Of a stretch of 64,000 nucleotides of DNA, positions 1-33,911 are shown in pieces. The DNA lies in the NCBI RefSeq assembly GCF_028641065.1, contig NC_073379.1:20894001-20958000 (forward strand). The letters are read 5' to 3'. This DNA is from Leucoraja erinacea (Eukaryota). The notes beneath the pieces were generated by a model that was given only the letters and a program-made list of their open reading frames with translations, had not been told where the DNA came from and did no database searches. Both the position numbers and the translations under genes were made by a program. The number at the start of each line of letters is the position of its first letter. The first letter of the stretch is position 1.

Positions 1-579
1 GAGTGTACAGATGCATGTCTTTATATTGTGCAACAAATGCCTGCATACAGGTCCACAGCTTCAGATTTATTTTAGATAACTATTTGGGATTGAAGGGGTT
101 ACATCCCAGATACTTTCGTGCTGCACTCACCAGGATCACTGACATTTCACTGCAGCAGAGAATTCACTCAGACCTCTGCATCATCACTTCCAGAATCTCT
201 CATGGACTAATAACCTCCACATCCTTTATGTCTCCTTATTGCTTGGTGACAGGATTTACAGATATATGGTCACCTCCTGTTTGATTGAACAACACACAAC
301 TTGATCCATTCACCACTTCTATTGATCCCTGTACTATTTTTGTGTTGTCAGGTAGTCTATCTGACATTGGATTTAACTGAGTTGCAACACTTTGTCGGTG
401 TAACATTAGGTAGACTGATGCTACAAGCTACAAATTCGCCACAAACCCCTTGAGCCCATCACTTATTCAAAGTTGTTTGCAATCTCAGCAATCGAATCCA
501 TTCAGACTTGATTCTCAGCTCTTGCATCCATCTCTGAATTAAAATGCACTCCTTTCCCTGCCCATTTACGATATGATAG

Positions 580-1000
580 GATAAAACTGTATTCATCTCA
601 GGAGGGAAAATGATCTGTTAAGCAGTCATAAAACATAGCAAAATACATGAAACATGAAATTAAAGTGACAAGTGGAACATCCAGGATTAGGGATGTGCAA
701 AGATTGGGGAGTGGGGGGGGGGGGAGAAGGGAAGGGGTCGGTCAGCTCCACAACAAAAGGGGAGGAGTTGTACAGTTTGATAGCCACAGAGAGAAAGGAT
801 CTCCTGTGACTTTCTGTGCTGCATCTTGGTGGAACCAGTCTGTGGCTGAAGGTGCTCCTCAGGTTGACCAGTGTGCATGGAGGTGATCTGTATTGTCCAA
901 GATGCTCCGCAGTTTGAGGAGCATCCTCTCCTCCAAGACCACCTCCAATGAATCCAACTCCGCCCCCAGGATGGAGCCAGCCTTCCTGATGAGCTTGTTA
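580..1000 (-). mobile_element. Rex1/Babar-type LINE 3' fragment
   Basis: Minus-strand translation KLIRKAGSILGAELDSLEVVLEERMLLKLRSILDN...RRSFLSVAIKLYNSSP resembles the Rex1/Babar ORF C-terminus. Confidence 0.7.
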
Positions 1001-2645
1001 ATTCTGTGGAATTATAATTATGAGAAATTCTAAAAAAATAATTTATTGATGATGATTATTCCAAGGCTTTGCCTTCAACACTCCTTATTAGTTTGCAGAC
1101 ATTGAGGCTCTTGTTGCTTCGATGCCATCCAACATCAAATCATTTACTGGGGAAATTTATGTTGGATGCAAGTAAAGATTTCATAAAAATAAAGGATCAA
1201 CACTTGGAATCATTATTCAGCTTAGCTATTGGTAACGTTAAATGTATTTAGCAGTAACTTAGATATTTTCTATTCTCAATGAATGAGCCAATTCAAATTA
1301 ACACTGTTTCCATCTAATTACCCTGATGAAATGAACATAATAACCCAAATAAACATGAGCTGGATTCTTCCATTTTCTTTCCCAAGCCTAATGATGAAGT
1401 AGAAGTTGATGTTAACATCAAAGTGTTCTCTAATTACTATTGTCACATTTAAATGACATGGACAACCTGAATAAGAAAGGTTTGGAGGAATAAGCATCTG
1501 GCACAGGCAGATAGGGCTATCTTGATTGGGGCATTGGGCTGACATGGATGAGTTGGGCTGAAGAGCCTGTTTCCTTGTTACGTGGGAGGAAACTGGAGCT
1601 CACAGGGATCTGCATGTGGTCACAGGGAGAACATGCAAACTCTGCACAAATAACACCAAAGGTTAGAATTGCAGGAGCTGTAAGGCAGAAGTACAAACAG
1701 AATTGCTGCACTCTTAACACTTGCTCAACGGGAAAGCAGAGGGCTGGTTTAATATTTCAGCCATATCACAGTTGTTTGTCACTCCAAGGTCAGGTCAGCC
1801 CTGAGCATTATCAACTTGTTACTCACTGGGTCAGTCAGGAGAAGACCGACCAACTCACCCCACTCATTGTTTTGCAGGTTAGCTATGAGTTGATTTCCCA
1901 TTTCGCGAGATGGTATTTTGTAAATAGTTTTTAAAATATGATGTCAGTCATGATGAAAAATTACATTAAAAAATAACCAGAATTGCTTTTCAGGTAGAAG
2001 TTTATGTGCATGTGTCATTGTTCAAGATTCAAAAAATGGTAGTACATTTAATATGAAAAAAATTAAATCAGGAAGCAATATGAAATTCTGCCACCTTGAC
2101 CTTTACCAACACAATTAAACCAAAAATCTCAGACCCAGCAACAAAAGGTGCATTCATTAAAAGAACTGCGCTTCAAACACATTTTGAACAATGAAAATCT
2201 TCAGCATCATCATTCTTAATACGCAGGCAACCACTATAGTGAATCCATGATCAGCAAGGTCCCTACGTACTGATCACTGTTTCTTGCTGAGGTTGGTGCG
2301 GTGATAACATCACCTTGCATCAGTAAATTATGCCTTGGACACTTTCACACCCAACAAGCAGTTTAACAGGAATCCCGAAATGGAATCTCGTGCAAAATTA
2401 TCCATCTTGATAATTACCAATAAAATAGTAAGATTAAACGAGAATTTACCAGTTTGAAGTTTGATCTTTATTTTATGAGGCGTTACGATGAGGAATTACG
2501 TGAAGAAGCCCGTTCAGCCGCACGTGCGTCAATCTTCAAAGAGGCGGTGTGAAATCACAGATAATAATAGTGACTGAAGTATGATAGTAAGATGAAAGAA
2601 GACTAGAACTACCAGATGATCTTAATAACGGCTGGGAATGGAGGG

Positions 2646-2758
2646 CACATAATCCCTCATCGTAACTCCTCATAAAATAAAGAACTAACTTCAAACTGGT
2701 AAGTTCTCATTTAATCTTTCTATTTTACTTCGGAGTCACGTGAGTGACTACATGAAGA
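2646..2758 (-). repeat. Internal complementary region (ICR) of DIRS copy 1
   Basis: Complementary to both element termini, which are joined through ATTTTA (2722-2727). Confidence 0.9.
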
Positions 2759-2909
2759 TTTCAAAGTTCTGTGATTTCATGCCATGAGAAACAGACTTAA
2801 GTTAAGCGACTCTTGATTACTCTATTTCAAGACCGACTCATAAAGCAAATTGGAGGAAGACATAAAAGACCATTCCTTATGCTTGTAGCGAGAATGTATC
2901 TTTCGCCAT

Positions 2910-5170
2910 TTTATGCTATAATTAATTTAAGCAGAGCAGTAGGGGTGTCAGGTCTCAAAATAGTTCAAGACATACCCAGGGATTTTTCGTTATGTGGGGA
3001 CACAAATATACAACAATACATCAAGGTCACCAAGAGACTTTGAGACATTGAGCTAACTATGATTGTTAGTTACAAAAGACGTTATAGGAACCTATCTGCT
3101 CAGGTTTTGTCAGGTGTTAAAACGGAGTTGAGGTACACAATGTCAATCTCCCATACTGCATTGTACTTGTCCTGGGAAACCTTTGTAACAGATGTCCTTT
3201 ACAAACTCGATATCCGAGGTGAACCCAACAACTTGGACCTCGTTAGCTTCAGTAAGTCTGATGGAAAGCCCCTTGGCACAGTTAATGACCCAATAATTCA
3301 ATATAGTCAAAGACCATTTAAATGAACTGCAATAACTCAGAATCTGTACCATTTTAAATACAACATGAGCATTAAACAAACGCTTCCCATCTGAAGCAGC
3401 AGAGTACCGCTTTTTGGCACCATTCCAGCACTGTGAATACATACAAAAATAGGCGTGACAACCCAAGCCGTAAGCAGTCTATTGAGAATCTGTAGAACAT
3501 ATATTAATTTTATCATGCAAAAGCTGATCTCTCAAGCCACAGGCTGAACCAGCAAGTTGCGTTTAAAAATAACCTTATAATGTTGCATTATTATTATTCC
3601 TGACCAATCGGGAATCAAACTGCTTAGGCCAATTCCACAGCTGGAACCTAAAGCGACTCGTGATGACTCTATTTCAAGACCGACTCATAAAGCAAATTGG
3701 AGGAAAACATAAAAGACCATTCCTTATGCTTGTAGCGAGAATGTATCTTTCGCCACTGTTATGCCACACATTTGTGCAACCTTTAATTAGTATGAAAACA
3801 ATATATCTAAATTTGGTGTTGCATTAAATCAGAATTTCATAAATACTGCGTGGACCATCATCCATTCTGTGTTGTCATTGATCTGTACTTAATCTAATTT
3901 GCCACTGGAGTATCATTATGTACCTTTTACAGGATCTTTTCCCTGATTGCACCCTTGTGCTTATCGTATGCCACATCTTAGTGTATCAACATGAAGTTGA
4001 GCATGCACCTATGCATATTCACTCAATCACTCTTTAACCCATAAATGCACTTAGGGTCTATAGATAGTTGATACCAATACTGAAGAGTTAATAACTCATT
4101 ACAAATCTCCTGCACCTCCAACTAGAGATGACATTTGCATGTTCCCACCTTAAGCCATAGCATCTTTTTTGCAATATAATGACATATTTATTGATCAACT
4201 ATTGGAGCAATGCTGAATACTGTTTCTCCATCATAGTGGCTTTATTAGCTTCAGCTGGCAATAGCAAGTTGTATTATCAATTACCTTCATGACCCTTATT
4301 GTTTGTCATTAAGCATGCTGTCAGTTCTCCCACTTGCTGCATCACATCTATTACATTGCCAGTTAGTCTAATGAATAGGAACTCCTTTATAACCACAAGG
4401 CTGTTCCAGGTTTCTATTGATTCCAATCTGTTGCCCAGGGCGGATCACAGGCCAACTATCCATTTGATAACAACCTAATTTTCTGGATAGGAGAGAACAA
4501 TCCCTCAATTAGCTTGAGACTGAGTGTATTTTAGCCAAATACAGCATCTAAAATATAATGTAGACAATACATCACAAGTGTTTTTGAACTCTGAGTAGTC
4601 CTTTGAATGATTTATTGTTATCATACTGTTTAAATTGCCTCATCATAACAATGCCTTCAAATATCTCTGATGATCATTGTACATGGAAAACCCTATGAAA
4701 TCAGTTTGTTCACCCTTCTTTCATAATGAACAGGCCACACCTGCCATCATTTCCAGTCTGCCCTGAACGGCAACTCTGGCCCAGTTCCAATAATTCTCAC
4801 ATGTCCCAAGACAACTCTTGCCATAATTCTGACCTTGCCTTGAAAGACAATTCCCATATCTCCGAGCCTGTCCCGAAGGCAACCTGGCTAAAATACGGGA
4901 CCTGGCTCAACACTCTTCTGGCCAAATTCCAACCTTCTTGGAATACTAGTATTGTCCAGTTACCTGGCTAAAATGCCTCTGAGTAGATGACAATGTCTCA
5001 ATTATTTGTGTATTGCCCAACCAATTGTAAATCTTACCAACTTGTTCATGGTCACTTAGTTGTAGAGTAACTCTGGTCAACTTTAATGCTGCTACCAGCT
5101 TCAGTGAACCGCTTCCTGCCGATGAAGCTGTGGGGTGTGTTTTCCCCTACACTATGAATCCTTACTCGTT
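2910..5170 (-). pseudogene. Heavily decayed DIRS gag/RT/MT/YR remnants
   Basis: Fragments KYNAVWEIDIV (YR N-terminus, ~3140-3170), FYVFPPICF and LIPDW (MT, 3600-3755), QLIS*GF and DHQRYLK (RT, ~4655-4710), HPTASS (gag, ~5120-5140) align by eye with the ORFs of the second DIRS. Many stops and deletions. Confidence 0.7.
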
Positions 5171-5804
5171 GTTGGCCTAATTGGTCCAACAGTTTATGTC
5201 TCGTCCTTCAGGTTTTGCCTGTGGAATAGGTCTTACCTGAATAGAAGATTCGGCAGGTGGCTCTAATGTCCCCTGATAGTGGTGTTCTCTGCATTGTGTT
5301 GGGATGGCAACCTTGCTGCCAGGAATCGTACCTCCGACATGTGTCCTTCATCCCTTGATGTATGCTCCATGCTATACCCTCAGCCTCAGTATCAGATTTA
5401 CACTGACCCGGCATGTTCTCCTCTTCCATAAGGGAGACATTAAGCAGCCCCACTACAAGGCGCTGCTGGCATGGCCTCTCCAACAGGCCCACCCTTTAGG
5501 GTTAGAAAATGCCCCGGTAAGCTCACCTCCTCCACTAGGGAGACATCATGCAGCCCTTCTACAGGTGCTGTTGCCATACATTTAAGCAACCCTATGCAAG
5601 GTGCTGCTGATGGCCTAGAGCAATAGGCCGGCACTGCCATAGATTCGGCAAACCCATTATGCAGCCCTGTTACAAGGAGCTGTTGGCAAGGGCTCTCCCA
5701 TCTGCCCAACACTGCCATATATCCTGGTGTTAGGGCGTATCTATCTTGAGCCTCCTCTCAATAAGTCTCCATCCTGGCAATTCCACATTATTAATTTTTT
5801 GCCC

Positions 5805-6450
5805 CTGAAGGAACCCTCCCGGCACTGGGACTGACCACTTGGGTCGATTTACCCCATATCTTGGGGACCTCCGCAGTCTGGGCACTGCATAGTTGGTGGA
5901 TTTCCCCTCCCCCGGGAATCCCAGCACCCTTATATATTACTGGAGGGAAAACCCCTACCGGCACCAGGGCTCACCGTTCCGGTCCGTTTAACCCCTTACC
6001 TGGGGACCCCTGCTGTCTGAAAACCGCATAATTACTGGATTCCCCAACCCAGGAACCCCAGCCTCTATATGTATATCGGGGAAAATCCTCCCGACACCCA
6101 GCATATATATTTATATCGGGGGAAACCCCTCCCGACTCCCGGTCTACTGGAGGTCCCTTCCATGGGAATCCCAAGATTAACATTCATATCGGAGGGAAAA
6201 GCCCTCCCGTCTCCCGGTGTACTGGAGGTCCCATCCCCGGGAAACCCCAGCATTCATATTCATATTGGGGGGAAGCCCTCCCGGCACCCGGCCTGCTGGA
6301 GGTCCCCTTCCCCGGGAAACCCCAGCATAAATCTTATTGTCAGAGGGAAACCCCTCCCGGCACCCAGCCTGCTGGAGGTCCCCTCCCTGGGAACCCCAGC
6401 GTCTCTGTGCCTATCGGAGGGAAACCCTCCCGGCACCCGGAGCGCCTGGA
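5805..6450. repeat. GC-rich ~75-bp tandem array inside DIRS copy 1
   Basis: GGAGGTCCC recurs at 6149, 6224, 6298 and 6374 (74-76 bp period). Longer ~139-bp and shorter ~40-bp variants lie to the left. Confidence 0.9.
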
Positions 6451-7709
6451 AGCCACTGACCCCCATCAGCGACCGGCTTCCGTGACACCCGACAAACCCA
6501 GCTACCCACTCTTGGCGGCAAGAACCGGGGTTTCCCCACAGCCCATAGCTGGTTCCCTCGTCGGGCCTTGCGAATCCTCCGGCAGGAAGCCTCTGGAACA
6601 ATAGGTTCCTGCAAGGAATAAAACAGGTAAGAAAACAAGCTTACCTTGAGTTTAAACTTACTGGGCTGGAGGAGCTCCTGCTCTGCAACCGGTCGCCTGC
6701 ACCAATACATCTGACGTAATGACGCACGTGTGGCTGAAAGGGCTTCTTCACGTAGTCACTCACATGACTCCGAAGTAAAATCCTGAAGATTTCATTCAGT
6801 TGGATTACACTATGGCCTTTCCTATCTCTCTCGAAAATGGGTTCAACTTCTTCAATCCACCTCGTATGCAGCCTCAACAGCCCGTTTTTTAAATTATTCT
6901 CCTTTTTTTGAACATTTCAAATCCAAGCCTATTCAAGTGCTTCCTTTGTGTAGTCATCCTGTAGGTCTGAGCAAAGATAGGATCTTTGAGTCTGAGTGAT
7001 CATTTTGGGGCCGACGAGTTTCATCCCGTTTAAACCTCCAAAATCTTTGCTTTCATTTGCAAAATCCCAATTTGCAGGAAGACAAAGAAAAGTGTTTTAA
7101 CATTCCTTTAACTTTTATTTTGGTCTTTTTTAATAAAAAATGTGAATGGATAATTGGGGATTATCTGCAGAGGGAGAGAGGTGCCAGATGCTGGTGGGAT
7201 GAGCTCCGATATATTATTTTCAATTATTCTTATTGCCACCAATATAAAGAACTAATCCATGAAGGATTTGAGTCCAGCTACAACATATCACGACAAGATA
7301 GCAAGGAATTAACTGGGTTTGAATGCATTATGAATCTATTCCATCTGTGGATTTTCCCCGTCCCAGTGTCTCTTCAATCGTTGACTCACTTTATTATTCA
7401 GAACATTGCCATTGTCCCTGCGGAGGTTCCAGCACCAGGATGTTAGAGTCAGAATTATGAACAATCAAAATTTTAATTGATATATTATTATTTGATTGTT
7501 ATAATATCTTAAAATCCTTGACCTTGAAAATTTAATTATGCCCATCACCTCAACAATGGAACACTAATCTCATGCACTAATATGGATTTTTGTTTCTAAT
7601 TATGTTTTTGCACTAATGTCTGCAAGGTGTCTATTCAAATGGTGCCCTCTGTTATTACTGCACCACACTTCTTCTTCAGTACGTTATTCTCATCTTTACA
7701 GAGTACTGA

Positions 7710-7912
7710 GTTCTCCCCGTGACCTGAATGGGTTTTCTCCGAGATTTTTGGTTTCCTCACACACTCCAAAGACGTACAGGTTCGTAGGTTAGTTGGCTTG
7801 GTAAATGTAAAAATTGTCCCTAGTGGGTGTAGGATAGTGTTAATATGCAGTGATCGCTGGTCGGCGCGGATCCGGTGGGCTGAAGGGCCTTGTTCTGTGC
7901 TATATCTCTAAA
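7710..7912 (+). mobile_element. V-SINE (HE1-like), 5'-truncated
   Basis: V-domain-like GTTCTCCCCGTGACC...TTTCCTCACACACTCCAAAGAC and tail TATCTCTAAACT. Confidence 0.8.
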
Positions 7913-8278
7913 CTCTCACACTGCAGAGTAACCATGGGACAAGACAGGTCCATCCTCTACACATCTCACACAGACATCACTAACACATTCCCTCATCTTG
8001 CAGTAGAAGATTGGACATTAGCCTCTCACATAGTAACTGGCCCCAGAAGAGTCCACGTCGCAGGGCTGGAAACTGGAAGTATCCCGAGCTAATTCAGCTA
8101 CCACCATCATCTATTGCAACAAGTGATGGCTCCCACTGTTTGCGCCGGAAGCTTGCGTCCTTTTTAGGACGGACGATGACAGCGATGTTAACATTTGAAA
8201 CATGGAAGATGGACACGAAAGAAGAAGAACATAATAACCATAGAAGGACTGAATTTAGCTGTGGGAGATAATGTACTG

Positions 8279-8572
8279 GACAGCACGGTGGTGCAGCAGT
8301 AGAGTTGCTGCCTTACAGCACCAGAGACCCGGGTGCAACCCTGACTATGGATACTGCCTGTGCAGTGTTTTTACATTCTCCTCGTGACTGTGTGGGTTTT
8401 CCCCGGGTGTTCTGGTTTCTTCCCACATTCCAAAGATGTACAGGTTTGTAAGTTAATTGGCTTTGGTTAAAAATTGTAAATTGTCCCTAGTGGGAAGGAT
8501 AGTGCTAGTGTTCGGTGATCGCTGGCCGGAGGACCAAATGGTCAGTTTCTGATCTGTATCAATAAACTAAAC
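8279..8572 (+). mobile_element. tRNA-derived V-SINE (HE1-like), full length
   Basis: A-box TGGTGCAGCAGT, degenerate B-box, central V-domain-like segment, (CTAAA) tail. Confidence 0.85.
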
Positions 8573-9411: not shown

Positions 9412-9710
9412 TGGGTGGCACTTTGGTGCAGCGGTAGAGTTGCTGCCTTACAGCGCTTGAGACCCGGGTTCAAACCTAACTATGGATGCTGTCGGTACAG
9501 AGTTTGGGCATTCGCCCTGTGACCACGTGTTTTTTCTGTGGGATTTCCGGTTTCCTCCCACACTCCAGAGACGTACAGGTTTGTAGGTTAATTTACTTGG
9601 TATAATTGTAAATTGTCCCCGGTGAGCGTAGGATAGTGTTAATATACGGGGGTCGCCGGTCGATGTGGACCTGGTGGGCCAAAGGGCCTGTTTCTCTAAA
9701 CTAAACTAAG
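9412..9710 (+). mobile_element. V-SINE (HE1-like)
   Basis: Same consensus, B-box GGTTCAAACC, tail CTAAACTAAACTAA. Confidence 0.85.
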
Positions 9711-10454: not shown

Positions 10455-10712
10455 ATATGGAAACAGGCCCTTTGGCCCACCAAATCTGACACCGACCATA
10501 ATCTACCATACACCAGTTGTATCCTGCACGCCAGGGACAATTTACAGAAGCCATTTACCTTCTTTCAGATGTGGGAGAAACCGGAATTTCCACAGTAAAC
10601 CATGAGGTCATAAGGAGAATGTACAAATACTGTACAGACAGTAATCATAGTCAGGATCCAATCTGGGTCTGTGGTGCTGCAAGGCAGCAACTCTACCACT
10701 GCGCCACCGTGC
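10455..10712 (-). mobile_element. V-SINE (HE1-like)
   Basis: Reverse complement of the SINE consensus (GCAGCAACTCTACCACTGCGCCACCGTGCC). Confidence 0.8.
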
Positions 10713-10835
10713 CACTCTATTAATTTTTTTTCTGTAATATTTATTATGATGACACGTCAATAAAGATGAACACATGATTCTGATTTCTGTCTTTATTTGG
10801 ATAACACACATCTCCAGTCATTGTATTTTAATGTT

Positions 10836-29341: not shown

Positions 29342-29592
29342 CTGGAATAGCATGAAAGTAAAAACGTACAGGATGATTTTACTTCGGAGTCACGTGAGTG
29401 ACTACGTGAAGAAACCGTCCAGCACGCATGCGCGACTTGAGCGTTCACGCAGTGCAACAGCGACGAACGGGAGCACAGGGCGCTCCCACTACAGCTTAAA
29501 AAAGGCGCACCATCAGGTAAGTTTATTCTGAGGTCGTATTTCGAAAACGTTGCTTTGCTTTGTGTACACCAGATTGAGACAACTGGAAAAAA

Positions 29593-30844
29593 ATGAGCAA
29601 AACAAGGCAAGCAAAAAAGACCGCCCCCCTCCCCCCGTTCGACTCCAACAGAGGAGTGTTCCATCAGTGGGGGGCGAGAGGTGGCAGGACCGCACACCCT
29701 GCGGTCAGCTATTTCTGACACTGAGCCAAGCCCAGTGCCGCTAGCGCAGCCTGAGCAGCGGGCTGGAAGTAAATCTACACGGAAGACAAACCGGCCGGTA
29801 ATGTCCGACATCTCCGACGAGGATGTCTCACCGCCCGAGAGCAGCAGAGGCAGGCACCTGAGCTGCATGGAGCGGCTCATGGAGCAAATGCTCCAGCGAG
29901 ACTTGCTTCGGGAGCTGGAGCAGTCTCGCCAAGGGAGTTCAGGCACTCCCACCACAGTGCCTCACAAGGCACTGGCCATCGCTTCTCCCTCAGCCGAGGG
30001 CAGCGTTGGCGACCAGGGCTGGGCTGCTCAAGAAGAGGGGTCACTGGCCGAAGATGTCGGGAGTACGCTTGGGGTACAGGACCAGGAAGAGCTGCTGGGT
30101 GTGGTCAACCGCTACGTGGCAGCTCCACAAGCAGTATGGCCATAAGAGCCAAAACTGGCGGCCAGCATAGACTACCTGTCCTTCAAACCCCTACAAGAGC
30201 GGGTAGTCAATGAGGCACTAGAGCTGTATTCGGCCCCAGAAAATTGCGCTTCGCTCAACGTGCCGGCCGTCAACAGCGAAATCTGGGGACACGTTGGGCA
30301 GAACATCCGCAACCAAGAATTAAAATTACGGCGGATTCTCAGGCTCCTGACGTCAGCAATTACTTCTTATGCTCGTTCTGTGGATGGGGTGGATATGACC
30401 ACAAACCAGCAAGATACATTAGCTCTGCTGTGCAACACCCAATACGAGATCAACAACCTCCATAAGGAGATAATAAGACCTGCCCTCAACCCGAAATTTG
30501 CAGGATTGTGCAAAACACCGGCCTCAGAAACACAAATCCTGCTCTTCGGTAAGGACCTCTCTAAAAAAGTGAAGGACCTGGAGGAAGAGTCCAAAACATT
30601 TGGCCTCATGAGGGCAGGCCCTGGAATGAGCAGACCCACAAAACCCAGACGGCAGTACCCCACTGTGTCCACCAGTCGACGTCAGCCTCATGGGACTGGT
30701 GAAAGCTCGGGGTCCACATACCATCCCCGAAAGCCTTTTTTAGGCCCGGGCATAGAGCGGACTCCATGGAAAATGCGCCACCCCCAACCAGCAGCACATC
30801 AGACAACACATCGTCCAATGAAGAAACAGAAGAAACACCCATAA
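29593..30844 (+). pseudogene. DIRS gag-like ORF1
   Basis: ORFs 29681-30145 and 30260-30844 are in frame across a single TAA (30143-30145). Motif PENCASLNVPAVNSEIW. The ATG at 29593 needs a 1-bp frameshift to join. Confidence 0.85.
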
Positions 30845-31980
30845 CCATGGAGGTAGGTGGGTCTGGTTCCTACCAGCATATAAAAAGTGGGGGATCCATA
30901 CTATCAGGGGGGAGATTACACCTGTTTGTGGAAGCATGGAGGTCTGTCACGAATGATAAATATATACTCAACAGCATTGTTGGATACAAAATAGAATTTG
31001 TTCAAGAAAACATGCCACCAGTTCAGCATCCACCCCAAAGGGTCTTTACCCTCTCAGTTAAAGAAAAACTAGAGGGTGAAGCAGAACTGATGAGGCTATT
31101 TACAAAGGGTATCATTGAGAAAACCAAACATGAACCCTTGGAATTTGTCTCAAATATATTCACTAAAACCAAATAAGATGGTGGATGTCGCATCATCATT
31201 GACTTAACTTCACTAAATATGTTTGTTAAGTATATACATATCAAAATGGAAACATTTATAACTGCCAAACAACTGATTTCCAAAGGATACTTCATGGCAA
31301 GCATCGACCTTAAAGATGCTTACTATTCAGTACCCATTCAAAAGGATCATCGCAGATACCTGAAATTTACTTGGATGGGACAACTATGGCAGTTTAAAGT
31401 GTTGCCTAATGGCTTAACATCAGTCCCAAGATTATTCACCAAGATATTAAAACCAGCCTTGGCAATATTAAGAAAACAGAAACATATTGTCATGGCATAT
31501 CTTGATGATATCTTAATAGTAGGCAAAACCATGGAATTGGCTAAATCAGCTGTGTCAGCTACCAAACAATTGTTTAAAACCTTGGGATTTGTTTTACATC
31601 CAGATAAATCTAAGTTGACGCCATCCACAACCATGGACTATCTGGGATTCACAATTAACTCAGTCCACATGTCTGTAACGTTGCCAAAAGAGAAAGCAGC
31701 AGAATTGGCACAAACATGTAACAATTTAATGGTCAACGATCGACCAACCATTCGACAAGTGGCAAGAGTAATTAGAAAAATGGTAGCAGCATTTCCAGCT
31801 ACACAATTTGGTCCTCTGCATTATCAAAACTTACAAAGAGCAAAAGTGCAGGTGTTAAAACGACATGCAGGACACTTTGACCGAGTCATGAAATTACCCA
31901 TTGAAGCAATATCAGAATTACAGTGGTGGGTAGGGAACATTTGGCATAGTTCCAGCCCTATCATTGTCATTAACCCAACA
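30766..31980 (+). pseudogene. DIRS reverse transcriptase
   Basis: SIDLKDAYYSVPI, LPNGLTSVPRLFTK, YLDD (31498-31509), YLGF. In-frame TAA at 31174-31176. Confidence 0.95.
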
Positions 31981-31989
31981 AATGACAAA

Positions 31990-32380
31990 GTTACAAATTA
32001 CAAAGCAATATGGCATGCCAAATATCGATCTGTTTGCATCCAGACTAAATCACCAGGTACCAATGTATGTCACTTGGGAACCAGACCCTGAGGCAGCAGC
32101 GATAGATACATTCGCGCTGGACTGGGGAAAATTCTTCTTTTATGCTTTTCCTCCCTTCTGCCTCATCAGTTGGGTACTACGCAGAATACAAATGGACTCT
32201 GCTTCAGGTATTTTGATAGTACCCGACTGGCCTACACAGCCATGGTTCCCAGTGGTCCTCGACATGGTCATCGAAACCCCAATGACTTTTCCCAGTAGCC
32301 CAGACTTATTAACTCACCCGGTATCAGGCATAAGCCACCCATGCCACGATAAAATTAAACTCCTGGGTTGCAAATTTTGA
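31990..32380 (+). pseudogene. DIRS N6-adenine methyltransferase-like (MT) domain
   Basis: IDLFASRLN...FYAFPPF...ILIVPDWPTQPWF, the established DIRS1 MT domain. It is out of frame with RT after a deletion. Confidence 0.88.
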
Positions 32381-33354
32381 AAAGACCGCTGCTGGGCCTG
32401 GGATTGTCAGACAGCATTATCAACATGATGACAGCATCCCACCGCATGTCCACAAGGAAACAATACTTGTCTAACATCAAGAAGTGGGAAAGATACTGTT
32501 CGAACACAGGAACCACATATTCGACTACTACAATAACCAATGTACTGGAATTCCTGGCAGGCCTTCACCACAATGAAGGACTCAGCTACAGTGCCATTAA
32601 TACAGCTAGAAATGCTCTGTCAGCCTACTTAATTCAGGCACCAGGACAACAGGCCATGGGGTCCCACCCGCTGGTGATCAAGCTCATGAGAGACATATTC
32701 AACTCTAATCCCCCCAGACCTAGGTACACCCAAATCTGGGATGTCAGTGTGGTCCTGACATACCATAGGGGATGGTCACCAGCCAGTCCCTCACCCTGGA
32801 ACAACTAACCCTGAAGACGGGCATGCTGATGGCACTTGTCTCAGCACAAAGAGTCCAGTCCCTCCATCTGCTACGATTGGTCAATATGGTTGTAACACCA
32901 GACCGTGTCTCATTTACCATCCAGGGGCTGGTCAAACAGAGCAGACCAGGAACATCAGGTCCAGTCATGGAATTCCGGGCTTACCCACCTGAACCACGGT
33001 TATGTGTCATGACCCACTTATTGAATTACATTGACACAACAAGAAATCCCCAAGGGAGAGAAAAAGCCTTATTGGGTCAGCCACAAGAAACCTCATGGTC
33101 GGGTGATGAGCCAAACTATTTCAAGATGGCTCAAGCAGGTGCTGAGAGCTGCTGGAGTAAATACTAACGTGTATAAATCTCACTCCACCAGGGCAGCATC
33201 CACATCGGCGGCTAAGAGGGTGGACGTGCCTATGGACCACATCCTGGCTACAGCGGGGTGGTCTAGGGAGAACACGGTCCAAACTTTTTATAACAAGCTG
33301 CTGGCAGAACCTGTATCGTTTGCAGAAAAAATATTAGAATCTGCAAATATATAA
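32368..33354 (+). pseudogene. DIRS tyrosine recombinase
   Basis: GLSYSAINTARNALS, SAQR, KQSR, HSTR (33181-33192), AGW, FYNK (Y at 33289). Two frameshifts near 32788 and 33072. Confidence 0.95.
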
Positions 33355-33499
33355 TTTAAGTTATTGTTTAATAAACACCATTATTGTTTTTACAAACAGA
33401 TTCATGGTTGATTACGATAACATACTTCCTCCCTCGAATGACTTCGGCAGCGAGTGAAGTATGAACTGTTAAACGGTTTGAAATCACAGAGCTTTAAAA

Positions 33500-33612
33500 T
33501 CTTCACGTAGTCACTCACGTGACACCGAAGTAAAATAGTAAGATTAAACGAGAACTTACCAGTTCGAAGTTTGATCTGTATTTTATGAGTAGTTACGATG
33601 AGGGATTACGTG
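33500..33612 (+). repeat. Internal complementary region (ICR) of DIRS copy 2
   Basis: Reverse complement of 29376-29412 fused through TAAAAT (33531-33536) to the reverse complement of 33759-33840. Confidence 0.95.
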
Positions 33613-33911
33613 CCCTCCGCTCCCACCCTCAATTATAGAGATCAACTGGTATTTAAGTTTTCCTTTTCTTTACTATGTTTATTTCAATTATTGTGTCTTT
33701 CTGTGATTCCACACTGCTGCTTTGAAGTATGTCGCGCATGCGTGCTGGACGGGTTCTTCACGTAATCCCTCATCGTAACTCCTCATAAAATAGAGATGAA
33801 ACTTCAAACTGGTAAATTCTCATTTAATCTTACTATTTTAATCTCTACCAGACATATAACCCAGGCACAGTGATTGCTACTCTACCCACAGAGTGGTTGC
33901 TACTTTACCCA

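What the first reader, a model, noticed from the sequence alone, without database searches (positions are those of the whole stretch)
2421..6781. Non-autonomous DIRS derivative: intact cis-termini around destroyed ORFs
Seen: the ICR differs from the element's own 3' end at about 8/82 positions, similar to about 6/82 in the DIRS at 29.4 kb, so the two insertions look comparable in age. Copy 2 keeps readable ORFs with a few lesions, while the ORFs here are barely recognisable and rearranged. Inference: this element was already non-coding when it last moved and was mobilised in trans by an autonomous DIRS. It would be a 4.4-kb parasitic DIRS family carrying new cargo, a poorly documented class.
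Basis: partly seen in the sequence, partly recalled or inferred. Interest (0 to 1): 0.7.

Follow-up and report, generated by a model that had tools for sequence, protein, structure and literature searches.

The report
Gene-dead DIRS parasite tracks helper's ends
This is one of well over a hundred copies of a jumping gene whose genes were already ruined before it spread, while its end signals stayed matched to those of a gene-carrying relative in the same genome, so it likely moved on that relative's enzymes and swapped its tail with it more than once.

Summary
Window 2424-6781 (minus strand) has complete DIRS1-type ends (ICR mismatches 8/82; copy 2 has 6/82). It belongs to a dispersed family ('N', roughly 150-190 copies by capture-recapture, 87-94% alike) whose copies share stops and frameshifts. 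The longest shared stop-free run on the element strand is 141 codons, against 474/692/331 in coding controls. Corrections: the body is mostly a colinear, decayed gag-RT-RNaseH-MT-YR, not new cargo (about 0.85 kb, including the 75-bp array, has no known source). The duplication and inversion are private to this copy. The target is ATT, not ATTTTA. Copy 2 is not the closest partner. New here: a coding DIRS family 'H' (about 55 copies, same age) shares the last ~360 nt at 86-95% while the bodies are only 40-60% alike. N and H moved from the same old to the same new 3' haplotype (AU p=0.006 against N monophyly). This likely reflects trans-mobilisation with repeated 3'-cassette exchange. Non-autonomous DIRS are known (TOC1, DIRS-N1), and this scan noted gene-dead full-length DIRS in at least six windows of other genomes.

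The parts
2424..6781 (-). Whole element: copy of non-coding DIRS1-like family N (family length about 4.7 kb; this copy 4,358 nt after a private rearrangement)
6637..6781 (-). 5' leader shared with coding family H: left terminus (6745-6781 pairs with the ICR), left ITR (6720-6762) and a splice-donor-like GGTAAG at 6640-6647 kept in N, H and C families (function untested)
5807..6451 (-). 75-bp tandem array (4 full units plus degenerate ones), family-specific; 3-6 units detected in 17 of 18 full-length copies; no match in H or C loci; lies where the 5' third of gag would be
5295..5765 (-). Three decayed copies of a ~106-bp piece of H-type gag (H positions ~470-720)
4480..4760 (-). Barely recognisable RT-core remnant (DHQRYLK-like stretch at 4655-4675); weak, colinear profile hits only; limits approximate
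   Evidence: E 0.005-0.6
3135..4324 (-). Decayed end of RT, RNase H, methyltransferase and N-terminal part of the tyrosine recombinase, colinear with coding DIRS, with stops shared across copies
2908..3135 (+). Private inversion: 228 nt of the family's YR remnant in reverse orientation; about 480 nt of YR remnant on either side is lost in this copy
2804..2916 (-). Private templated duplicate of 3651-3764 (MT remnant)
2646..2758 (-). Internal complementary region; circular-junction trinucleotide at 2722-2724
   Evidence: layout as in PMC3266345
2532..2645 (-). ICR-ITR spacer: 86-93% alike to family H, 55-60% to copy-2-type families over most of it; carries the H1-type haplotype (7 of 7 diagnostic columns in the cassette)
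2424..2531 (-). Right ITR and right extension, ending in ATT
29376..33840 (+). Copy 2: coding-type DIRS of another family (C), with a ~417-nt deletion in pol not seen in the 20 relatives fetched; shares only the outer ends with the element

Best explanation
The element is a copy of a full-length, gene-dead DIRS1-like retrotransposon family that was likely copied in trans by the proteins of a coding relative (family H) and likely exchanged its 3' end cassette with that relative during reverse transcription. Shown: (a) intact DIRS ends around a colinear but ruined DIRS body; (b) the ruin is shared by copies at unrelated sites and across a ladder of subfamilies; (c) one copy's empty site shows recombinase-type insertion at a 3-nt ATT; (d) a coding family of the same age shares the 5' leader and the last ~360 nt but not the body; (e) both families carry the same old and the same new 3' haplotype, in the same order on their own body trees. 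Inferred: an ancestor near the H lineage lost its ORFs long ago and survived many rounds of copying. N RNA would be packaged with helper Gag/RT, its ends rebuilt on the ICR, the circle integrated by helper YR. Template switching between co-packaged N and H RNAs just upstream of the ICR would replace the 3' cassette and keep the two compatible. The direction of exchange is not resolved.
For: Copy number and dispersal: 102 and 117 exact hits for two family 22-mers, 0 for reversed controls; capture-recapture 149 on contigs 1-23, about 185 genome-wide; unrelated flanks. Shared decay: longest shared stop-free run on the element strand 141 codons in 18 N copies versus 474/692/331 and 1083/334 in two coding controls and 1058/330 in 13 H copies. 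Shared stops inside homologous hits: 13 of 15 and 8 of 12 copies in YR; 11 of 14, 11 of 13, 9 of 10 and 8 of 9 in pol; a frame change near YR profile position 271-274 in 11 of 17 copies. Subfamily ladder with 16 starred branches among 43 bodies. Empty-site reads for copy L039 skip 4,639 nt with a 3-letter overlap (over 1,000 reads in each of two runs); the element with both ATT is 4,642 nt. Partner: 5 of 40 loci picked by the family's 3' motif had coding-type bodies. N-H identity is 0.86-0.95 from ~25 nt before the ICR to the end and 0.33-0.61 in the body. Body tree: N, H and C each 100/100 with an N stem of ~0.47; 3'-cassette tree: N and H interleaved, C apart 100/100; AU p=0.006 against N monophyly. 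H2-type ends are basal and H1-type derived on both rooted body trees. ICR-versus-end mismatch: N 5.8% (49 copies), H 5.4% (15 copies).
Against: The cassette is short (358 columns) and its tree poorly resolved (8 of 90 branches starred). The 7 diagnostic columns reduce to about 4 independent changes, because two are an ICR/terminus pair and three are one indel in a TAT repeat. The ICR and right extension are also ~95% alike to the far larger C families, so C proteins could have helped too. None of the 23 H loci examined has all ORFs intact; H's coding state rests on the shared-stop map. The 5' leader of new N copies did not switch to H1 type. No co-packaging, circle or family transcript was observed: interior RNA depth was 0-6, on both strands, without start or end peaks, in three runs of coded organisms. 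One locus (L143) joins a different coding body to the same cassette, so exchange is not exclusive to N and H and may include post-insertion recombination.
Confidence: 0.75

Rival explanations
1. Trans-mobilised parasite whose ends stayed like the helper's by purifying selection alone, with no exchange.
For: The ICR and right extension are nearly invariant across all three families, so selection on the ends is real. Old N copies have ITR variants of their own.
Against: The spacer differs freely between coding families (H-C 55-60%) yet is 86-93% alike in N and H, while the adjacent 3' UTR drops to 42%. Bodies are ~0.66 changes per site apart. The same derived haplotype appears in both lineages and N monophyly is rejected.
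Confidence: 0.12
2. The shared cassettes arose after insertion, by gene conversion or ectopic recombination between genomic copies, not during reverse transcription.
For: L143 has a foreign 5' ITR that does not pair with its N/H1-type 3' ITR. Tens of thousands of DIRS RT candidates exist in the genome (24,285 first-look candidates).
Against: Cassette type follows body subfamily in both N and H, which copy-by-copy conversion would not give. Conversion should mostly draw on the far more abundant C families, yet no N-bodied copy falls in the C cassette clade (0 of 54). A conversion in a master copy cannot be told apart from a template switch.
Confidence: 0.1
3. An ordinary autonomous DIRS that decayed after insertion, or copies spread by segmental duplication.
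For: None beyond the fact that every copy carries private damage too.
Against: Stops and frameshifts are shared across copies. End branches are ~0.025 against an N stem of ~0.47. Similarity stops at the ATT ends, with unrelated flanks.
Confidence: 0.03

Closest known systems
DIRS1-like tyrosine-recombinase retrotransposons (Piednoel et al. 2011, PMC3266345; passages read)
   Same: ITRs, two ICRs overlapping on a 3-bp junction, right extension, NTT (mostly ATT) at both ends, no target-site duplication; gene order gag, RT-RH-MT, YR; size 4-6 kb.
   Different: All ORFs are dead in the shared state of the family. The paper has no occurrence of 'non-autonomous' in its main text.
TOC1 of Chlamydomonas reinhardtii (PMC9940879, one passage) and zebrafish 'DIRS-N1' (name only, PMC5400779)
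   Same: Non-autonomous members of the DIRS order exist; the passage calls TOC1 a non-autonomous DIRS retrotransposon.
   Different: Recalled, not checked: TOC1 has split direct repeats rather than ITR/ICR ends and also holds a ~76-bp array. That DIRS-N1 is non-autonomous is read from the naming convention. No helper pairing or end exchange was seen for either in what I read.
Autonomous/non-autonomous partners that homogenise cis ends: grass pararetrovirus partners (PMC5491270, abstract and passages); soybean 'LTR swapping' (Du et al. 2010) and rice Dasheng/RIRE2 (Jiang et al. 2002), titles only in reference lists
   Same: The parasite shares non-coding regulatory ends with its partner, and region-specific recombination is the proposed cause.
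   Different: Those are integrase LTR elements or plant pararetroviruses. Here it is an ICR-type YR retroelement of an animal, and the exchanged block is the ICR-spacer-ITR cassette.
Degenerate Xenopus DIRS-like Repbase families (PMC9210276, passages)
   Same: 36 of 75 X. tropicalis family sequences are described as degenerate in repeats and/or ORFs.
   Different: They are read as degeneration, not as trans-mobilised families. Supplementary tables were not opened and may list comparable cases.

Membership tests
DIRS1-like superfamily | Inverted terminal repeats | tested here: met
   2489-2531 / 6720-6762, 88%; ITR variants co-vary at both ends across families
DIRS1-like superfamily | [quoted passage not shown] | tested here: met
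   junction at 2722-2724
DIRS1-like superfamily | Begins and ends with NTT; insertion without target-site duplication | tested here: met
   43 of 43 5' ends found by motif read NTT and 48 of 54 3' ends ATT (the motif search itself favours this at the 5' end); empty-site joint with 3-letter overlap for L039
DIRS1-like superfamily | gag, RT-RH-MT and YR homology in this order | tested here: met
   Present as colinear remnants; reversed controls give 0 hits. The RT core is only weakly detected
Autonomous DIRS1-like element | Intact ORFs | tested here: not met
   Shared stops and frameshifts; no Pfam hit
Non-autonomous (trans-mobilised) retroelement family | Many dispersed copies that share the disabling lesions | tested here: met
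Non-autonomous (trans-mobilised) retroelement family | Contemporary coding partner with matching cis ends | tested here: met
   Family H; 24 and 26 exact hits for two H 20-mers, 11 shared, about 57 copies by hand
Non-autonomous (trans-mobilised) retroelement family | Mobilisation by the partner's proteins shown directly | not testable with these tools
   Needs a retrotransposition assay
Cargo-carrying DIRS (snRNA capture type of earlier notes) | Foreign RNA or gene fragment inherited by the family | tested here: not met
   No Rfam match in 5 loci except one sub-threshold snoRNA score, E 0.12. About 0.85 kb including the array has no identified source

The most novel reading that the evidence does not exclude
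DIRS particles carry more than one RNA, and reverse transcriptase regularly jumps between them just upstream of the ICR. A gene-dead, full-size parasite thereby keeps re-acquiring its helper's current ICR-spacer-ITR cassette, in which the spacer is a family-specific recognition signal. The N/H pair would be a fossil record of helper-parasite concerted evolution in a tyrosine-recombinase retroelement, and would map the minimal cis parts to a ~145-nt leader and a ~360-nt tail.
Probability: 0.4. Interest if true: 0.7.

Novelty: new variant of a known kind. Interest (0 to 1): 0.5.

Why it matters
The DIRS replication model (ICR-templated rebuilding of the ends, circular intermediate, YR integration) is described as not fully proven, and the need for the ICR as untested (PMC5633606, passages). 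A family that lost every gene but kept moving shows which sequences are needed in cis. A named helper of the same age, with a sharp identity boundary ~25 nt upstream of the ICR, gives direct tests of trans-complementation, helper specificity and inter-RNA template switching. It also warns that repeat libraries may mis-date or mislabel such gene-dead but mobile full-length DIRS.

Tried and rejected
tblastx/tblastn of copy 2 against the element found only the ends; profile searches were needed. The 1,666 and 1,582 'first-look candidates' are not copy numbers; exact-motif counts replaced them. All 30 loci taken by the family's 5' 342 nt had N-type sequence and no gag hit within their 1.5-kb flanks. 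The idea that leader and 3' cassette were swapped together as one block across the circle junction was rejected, since new N copies keep an H2-like leader. snRNA cargo: none. RNA structure: window z-scores average -0.7 in two N copies and -0.5 in one H copy, with no consistent interior fold (20 shuffles, non-overlapping windows). Origin of the 75-bp unit: no hit in H or C loci; it was not searched against other repeat families. Short internally deleted copies (636, 1,030, 1,838 nt) each had their own breakpoints among the 21 two-ended loci examined; no mini-family was seen and none was searched genome-wide. Sequencing runs: no RNA holder listed; the RNA lay gave only scattered low depth and is inconclusive. 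Contigs of two other coded organisms run from both flanks 20-24 letters into the element; this hints at a shared insertion but is under the 31-letter bridging rule. Seventeen other window ORFs gave no Pfam hit. Literature: 8 searches found no paper describing a gene-dead ITR/ICR DIRS family with its helper or end exchange; most subscription papers and Repbase are not held, and two relevant papers were not available.

Full report
OBSERVATION. The element lies on the minus strand. Three inverted repeats give the DIRS1 layout described in PMC3266345 (passages): 5' end 6745-6781 pairs with ICR 2722-2758, 3' end 2421-2502 pairs with ICR 2646-2727, and the ITRs 6720-6762 and 2489-2531 pair with each other. 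The ends are ATT, so the strict span is 2424-6781. Copy 2 shares only the ends with this element, has RVT_1 and integrase-type Pfam hits, and lacks ~417 nt of pol relative to the 20 relatives fetched.

A FAMILY. The interior found 40 scored places at 87-95% identity. I fetched 39 with flanks; 17 had both ends within 3.5-5.2 kb and were aligned with the window copy, the other 22 being left out of the full-length alignment. Flanks are unrelated. Two family 22-mers have 102 and 117 exact hits with 0 in reversed controls. Overlap on contigs 1-23 (82, 98, 54 shared) gives about 149 copies there and 185 genome-wide, probably an underestimate because intact copies are caught twice. Four other coded organisms hold the family along its whole length.

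DEAD BEFORE IT SPREAD. Counting stop codons shared by at least 60% of copies per alignment column, the longest open run on the element strand is 141 codons (in the GC-rich array) in 18 N copies; the opposite strand has one of 217 codons in the same GC-rich region, with no Pfam hit in that region. Coding controls give 474/692/331 and 1083/334. Inside the stretches that still match YR and pol profiles, stops recur in 13 of 15, 8 of 12, 11 of 14, 11 of 13, 9 of 10 and 8 of 9 covering copies, and 11 of 17 copies change frame near YR profile position 271-274. The bodies form a ladder of subfamilies (43 copies, 16 starred branches, median end branch 0.025) on a stem of ~0.47. For copy L039, which sits in another repeat, reads from uninterrupted copies of that repeat skip 4,639 nt with a three-letter overlap; the element with both ATT measures 4,642 nt. 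That is the recombinase-type junction. At the 3' end 48 of 54 copies read ATT and only 10 read ATTTTA; the next two bases lean to A/T then T, as in the coding families.

WHAT THE BODY IS. DNA and protein profiles of coding DIRS align colinearly with the 3' half of N (end of RT, RNase H, MT, YR, 3' UTR), with no hit on reversed sequence. The ~106-bp triplication at 5295-5765 matches gag of family H. Weak colinear hits cover the gag end and the RT core (E 0.002-0.9). Only about 5780-6635, with the 75-bp array, has no match in the coding loci fetched. There is no snRNA cargo. The window copy's oddities are private: 2908-3135 is an inverted piece of the YR remnant, 2804-2916 repeats 3651-3764, and ~480 nt are lost; the three junctions occur in 1 of 70 N loci.

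THE PARTNER. I fetched 40 loci that had the family's 3' motif but not its interior motif. Five had coding-type bodies; four belong to one family, H, and one (L143) to another body. Twenty H loci were fetched, one overlapping an earlier one. Thirteen near-full-length ones give shared open runs of 1,058 and 330 codons. Two H 20-mers have 24 and 26 exact hits, 11 shared by my count, about 57 copies, so N outnumbers H about threefold. ICR-versus-end mismatch is 5.8% in 49 N and 5.4% in 15 H copies; it is 3.2% in 18 C copies, which I chose partly for long ORFs and so biased young. Between N and H, identity is 0.8-0.9 over the first ~90 nt, 0.33-0.61 through the body, 0.42 just before the ICR, and 0.86-0.95 from ~25 nt before the ICR to the end. 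The spacer is only 0.55-0.6 over most of its length between N or H and the C families (body values come from a forced alignment and are rough).

EXCHANGE OF THE 3' CASSETTE. On bodies, N, H and C are three clades. On the cassette, 54 N and 18 H rows interleave while 18 C rows stand apart at 100/100, and holding N together is rejected (AU p=0.006). Seven columns, about four independent changes, separate two H cassette types; N copies carry either type in full. On rooted body trees the H2 type is basal and the H1 type derived in both families. Two H1 loci also share part of the youngest N haplotype. A single old capture cannot give this; at least one further exchange is needed. The direction is unresolved, the tree is weak, and conversion in a master copy would look the same.

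MECHANISM. From the DIRS model (PMC5633606, passages: ends rebuilt on the ICR, circular cDNA, site-specific recombination; not fully proven), N needs only cis ends. Inferred steps: transcription from the left terminus, packaging with helper Gag/RT, ICR-templated end repair, circularisation, YR integration at ATT, with occasional template switches to co-packaged H RNA. None of these steps was observed; RNA evidence is inconclusive.

COMPARISON AND NOVELTY. By ends and ancestry it is DIRS1-like; it fails the autonomous test and meets the testable criteria of a non-autonomous family. Non-autonomous DIRS are in print as TOC1 and, by name, DIRS-N1. End homogenisation between partners is known for plant pararetroviruses and, by title, soybean LTR elements. 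Eight searches found no account of it for ITR/ICR DIRS, within a library that lacks Repbase and most subscription papers; supplements were not opened. Other papers seen as passages only and not used as support: PMC8498967, bioRxiv 2022.05.23.493040, PMC12477816. Earlier AI notes of this scan describe gene-dead full-length DIRS in at least six windows of other genomes, so the type recurs. What this locus adds is the named helper and the tracked 3' cassette.

VERDICT. Real feature; new variant of a known kind; interest 0.5.

Noticed in passing
L143:1030-5573 (element strand, minus of the locus): Chimeric DIRS: a coding-type body of another family (68-78% to C and H) with an N/H1-type 3' cassette at ~95%; its left and right ITRs do not match each other.
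   Followed up: partly
L178 and L179 (near-identical insertions on two small contigs): H-bodied copies whose 3' cassette shares an insertion and a substitution with the youngest N subfamily, a hint of flow from N to H.
   Followed up: partly
family H, alignment positions 143-3316: gag and pol lie in one frame with no shared stop (1,058 codons), as in one of the two C groups (1,083), whereas copy-2-like elements have them in different overlapping frames.
   Followed up: no
window 6640-6647 and 29515-29522: A splice-donor-like GGTAAG about 140 nt into the leader is kept in N, H and C although the sequence after it diverges; it may be a cis requirement.
   Followed up: no
family N versus H: N keeps nearly the helper's length (4,733 versus 4,798 core columns): apparent losses in gag/RT are offset by 5' repeat expansions, and short deletion copies seen here did not form families. 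This may point to a size constraint.
   Followed up: partly
L132, L134, L120: Two-ended internal-deletion copies of 636, 1,030 and 1,838 nt.
   Followed up: partly
window 7733-8530, 9415-9700, 10460-10715, 1546-1690: Several 76-82% alike interspersed repeats in both orientations, likely a SINE family (inference from size and dispersal).
   Followed up: no
genome G000: DIRS RT gives 24,285 first-look candidates; the superfamily is very abundant here.
   Followed up: no
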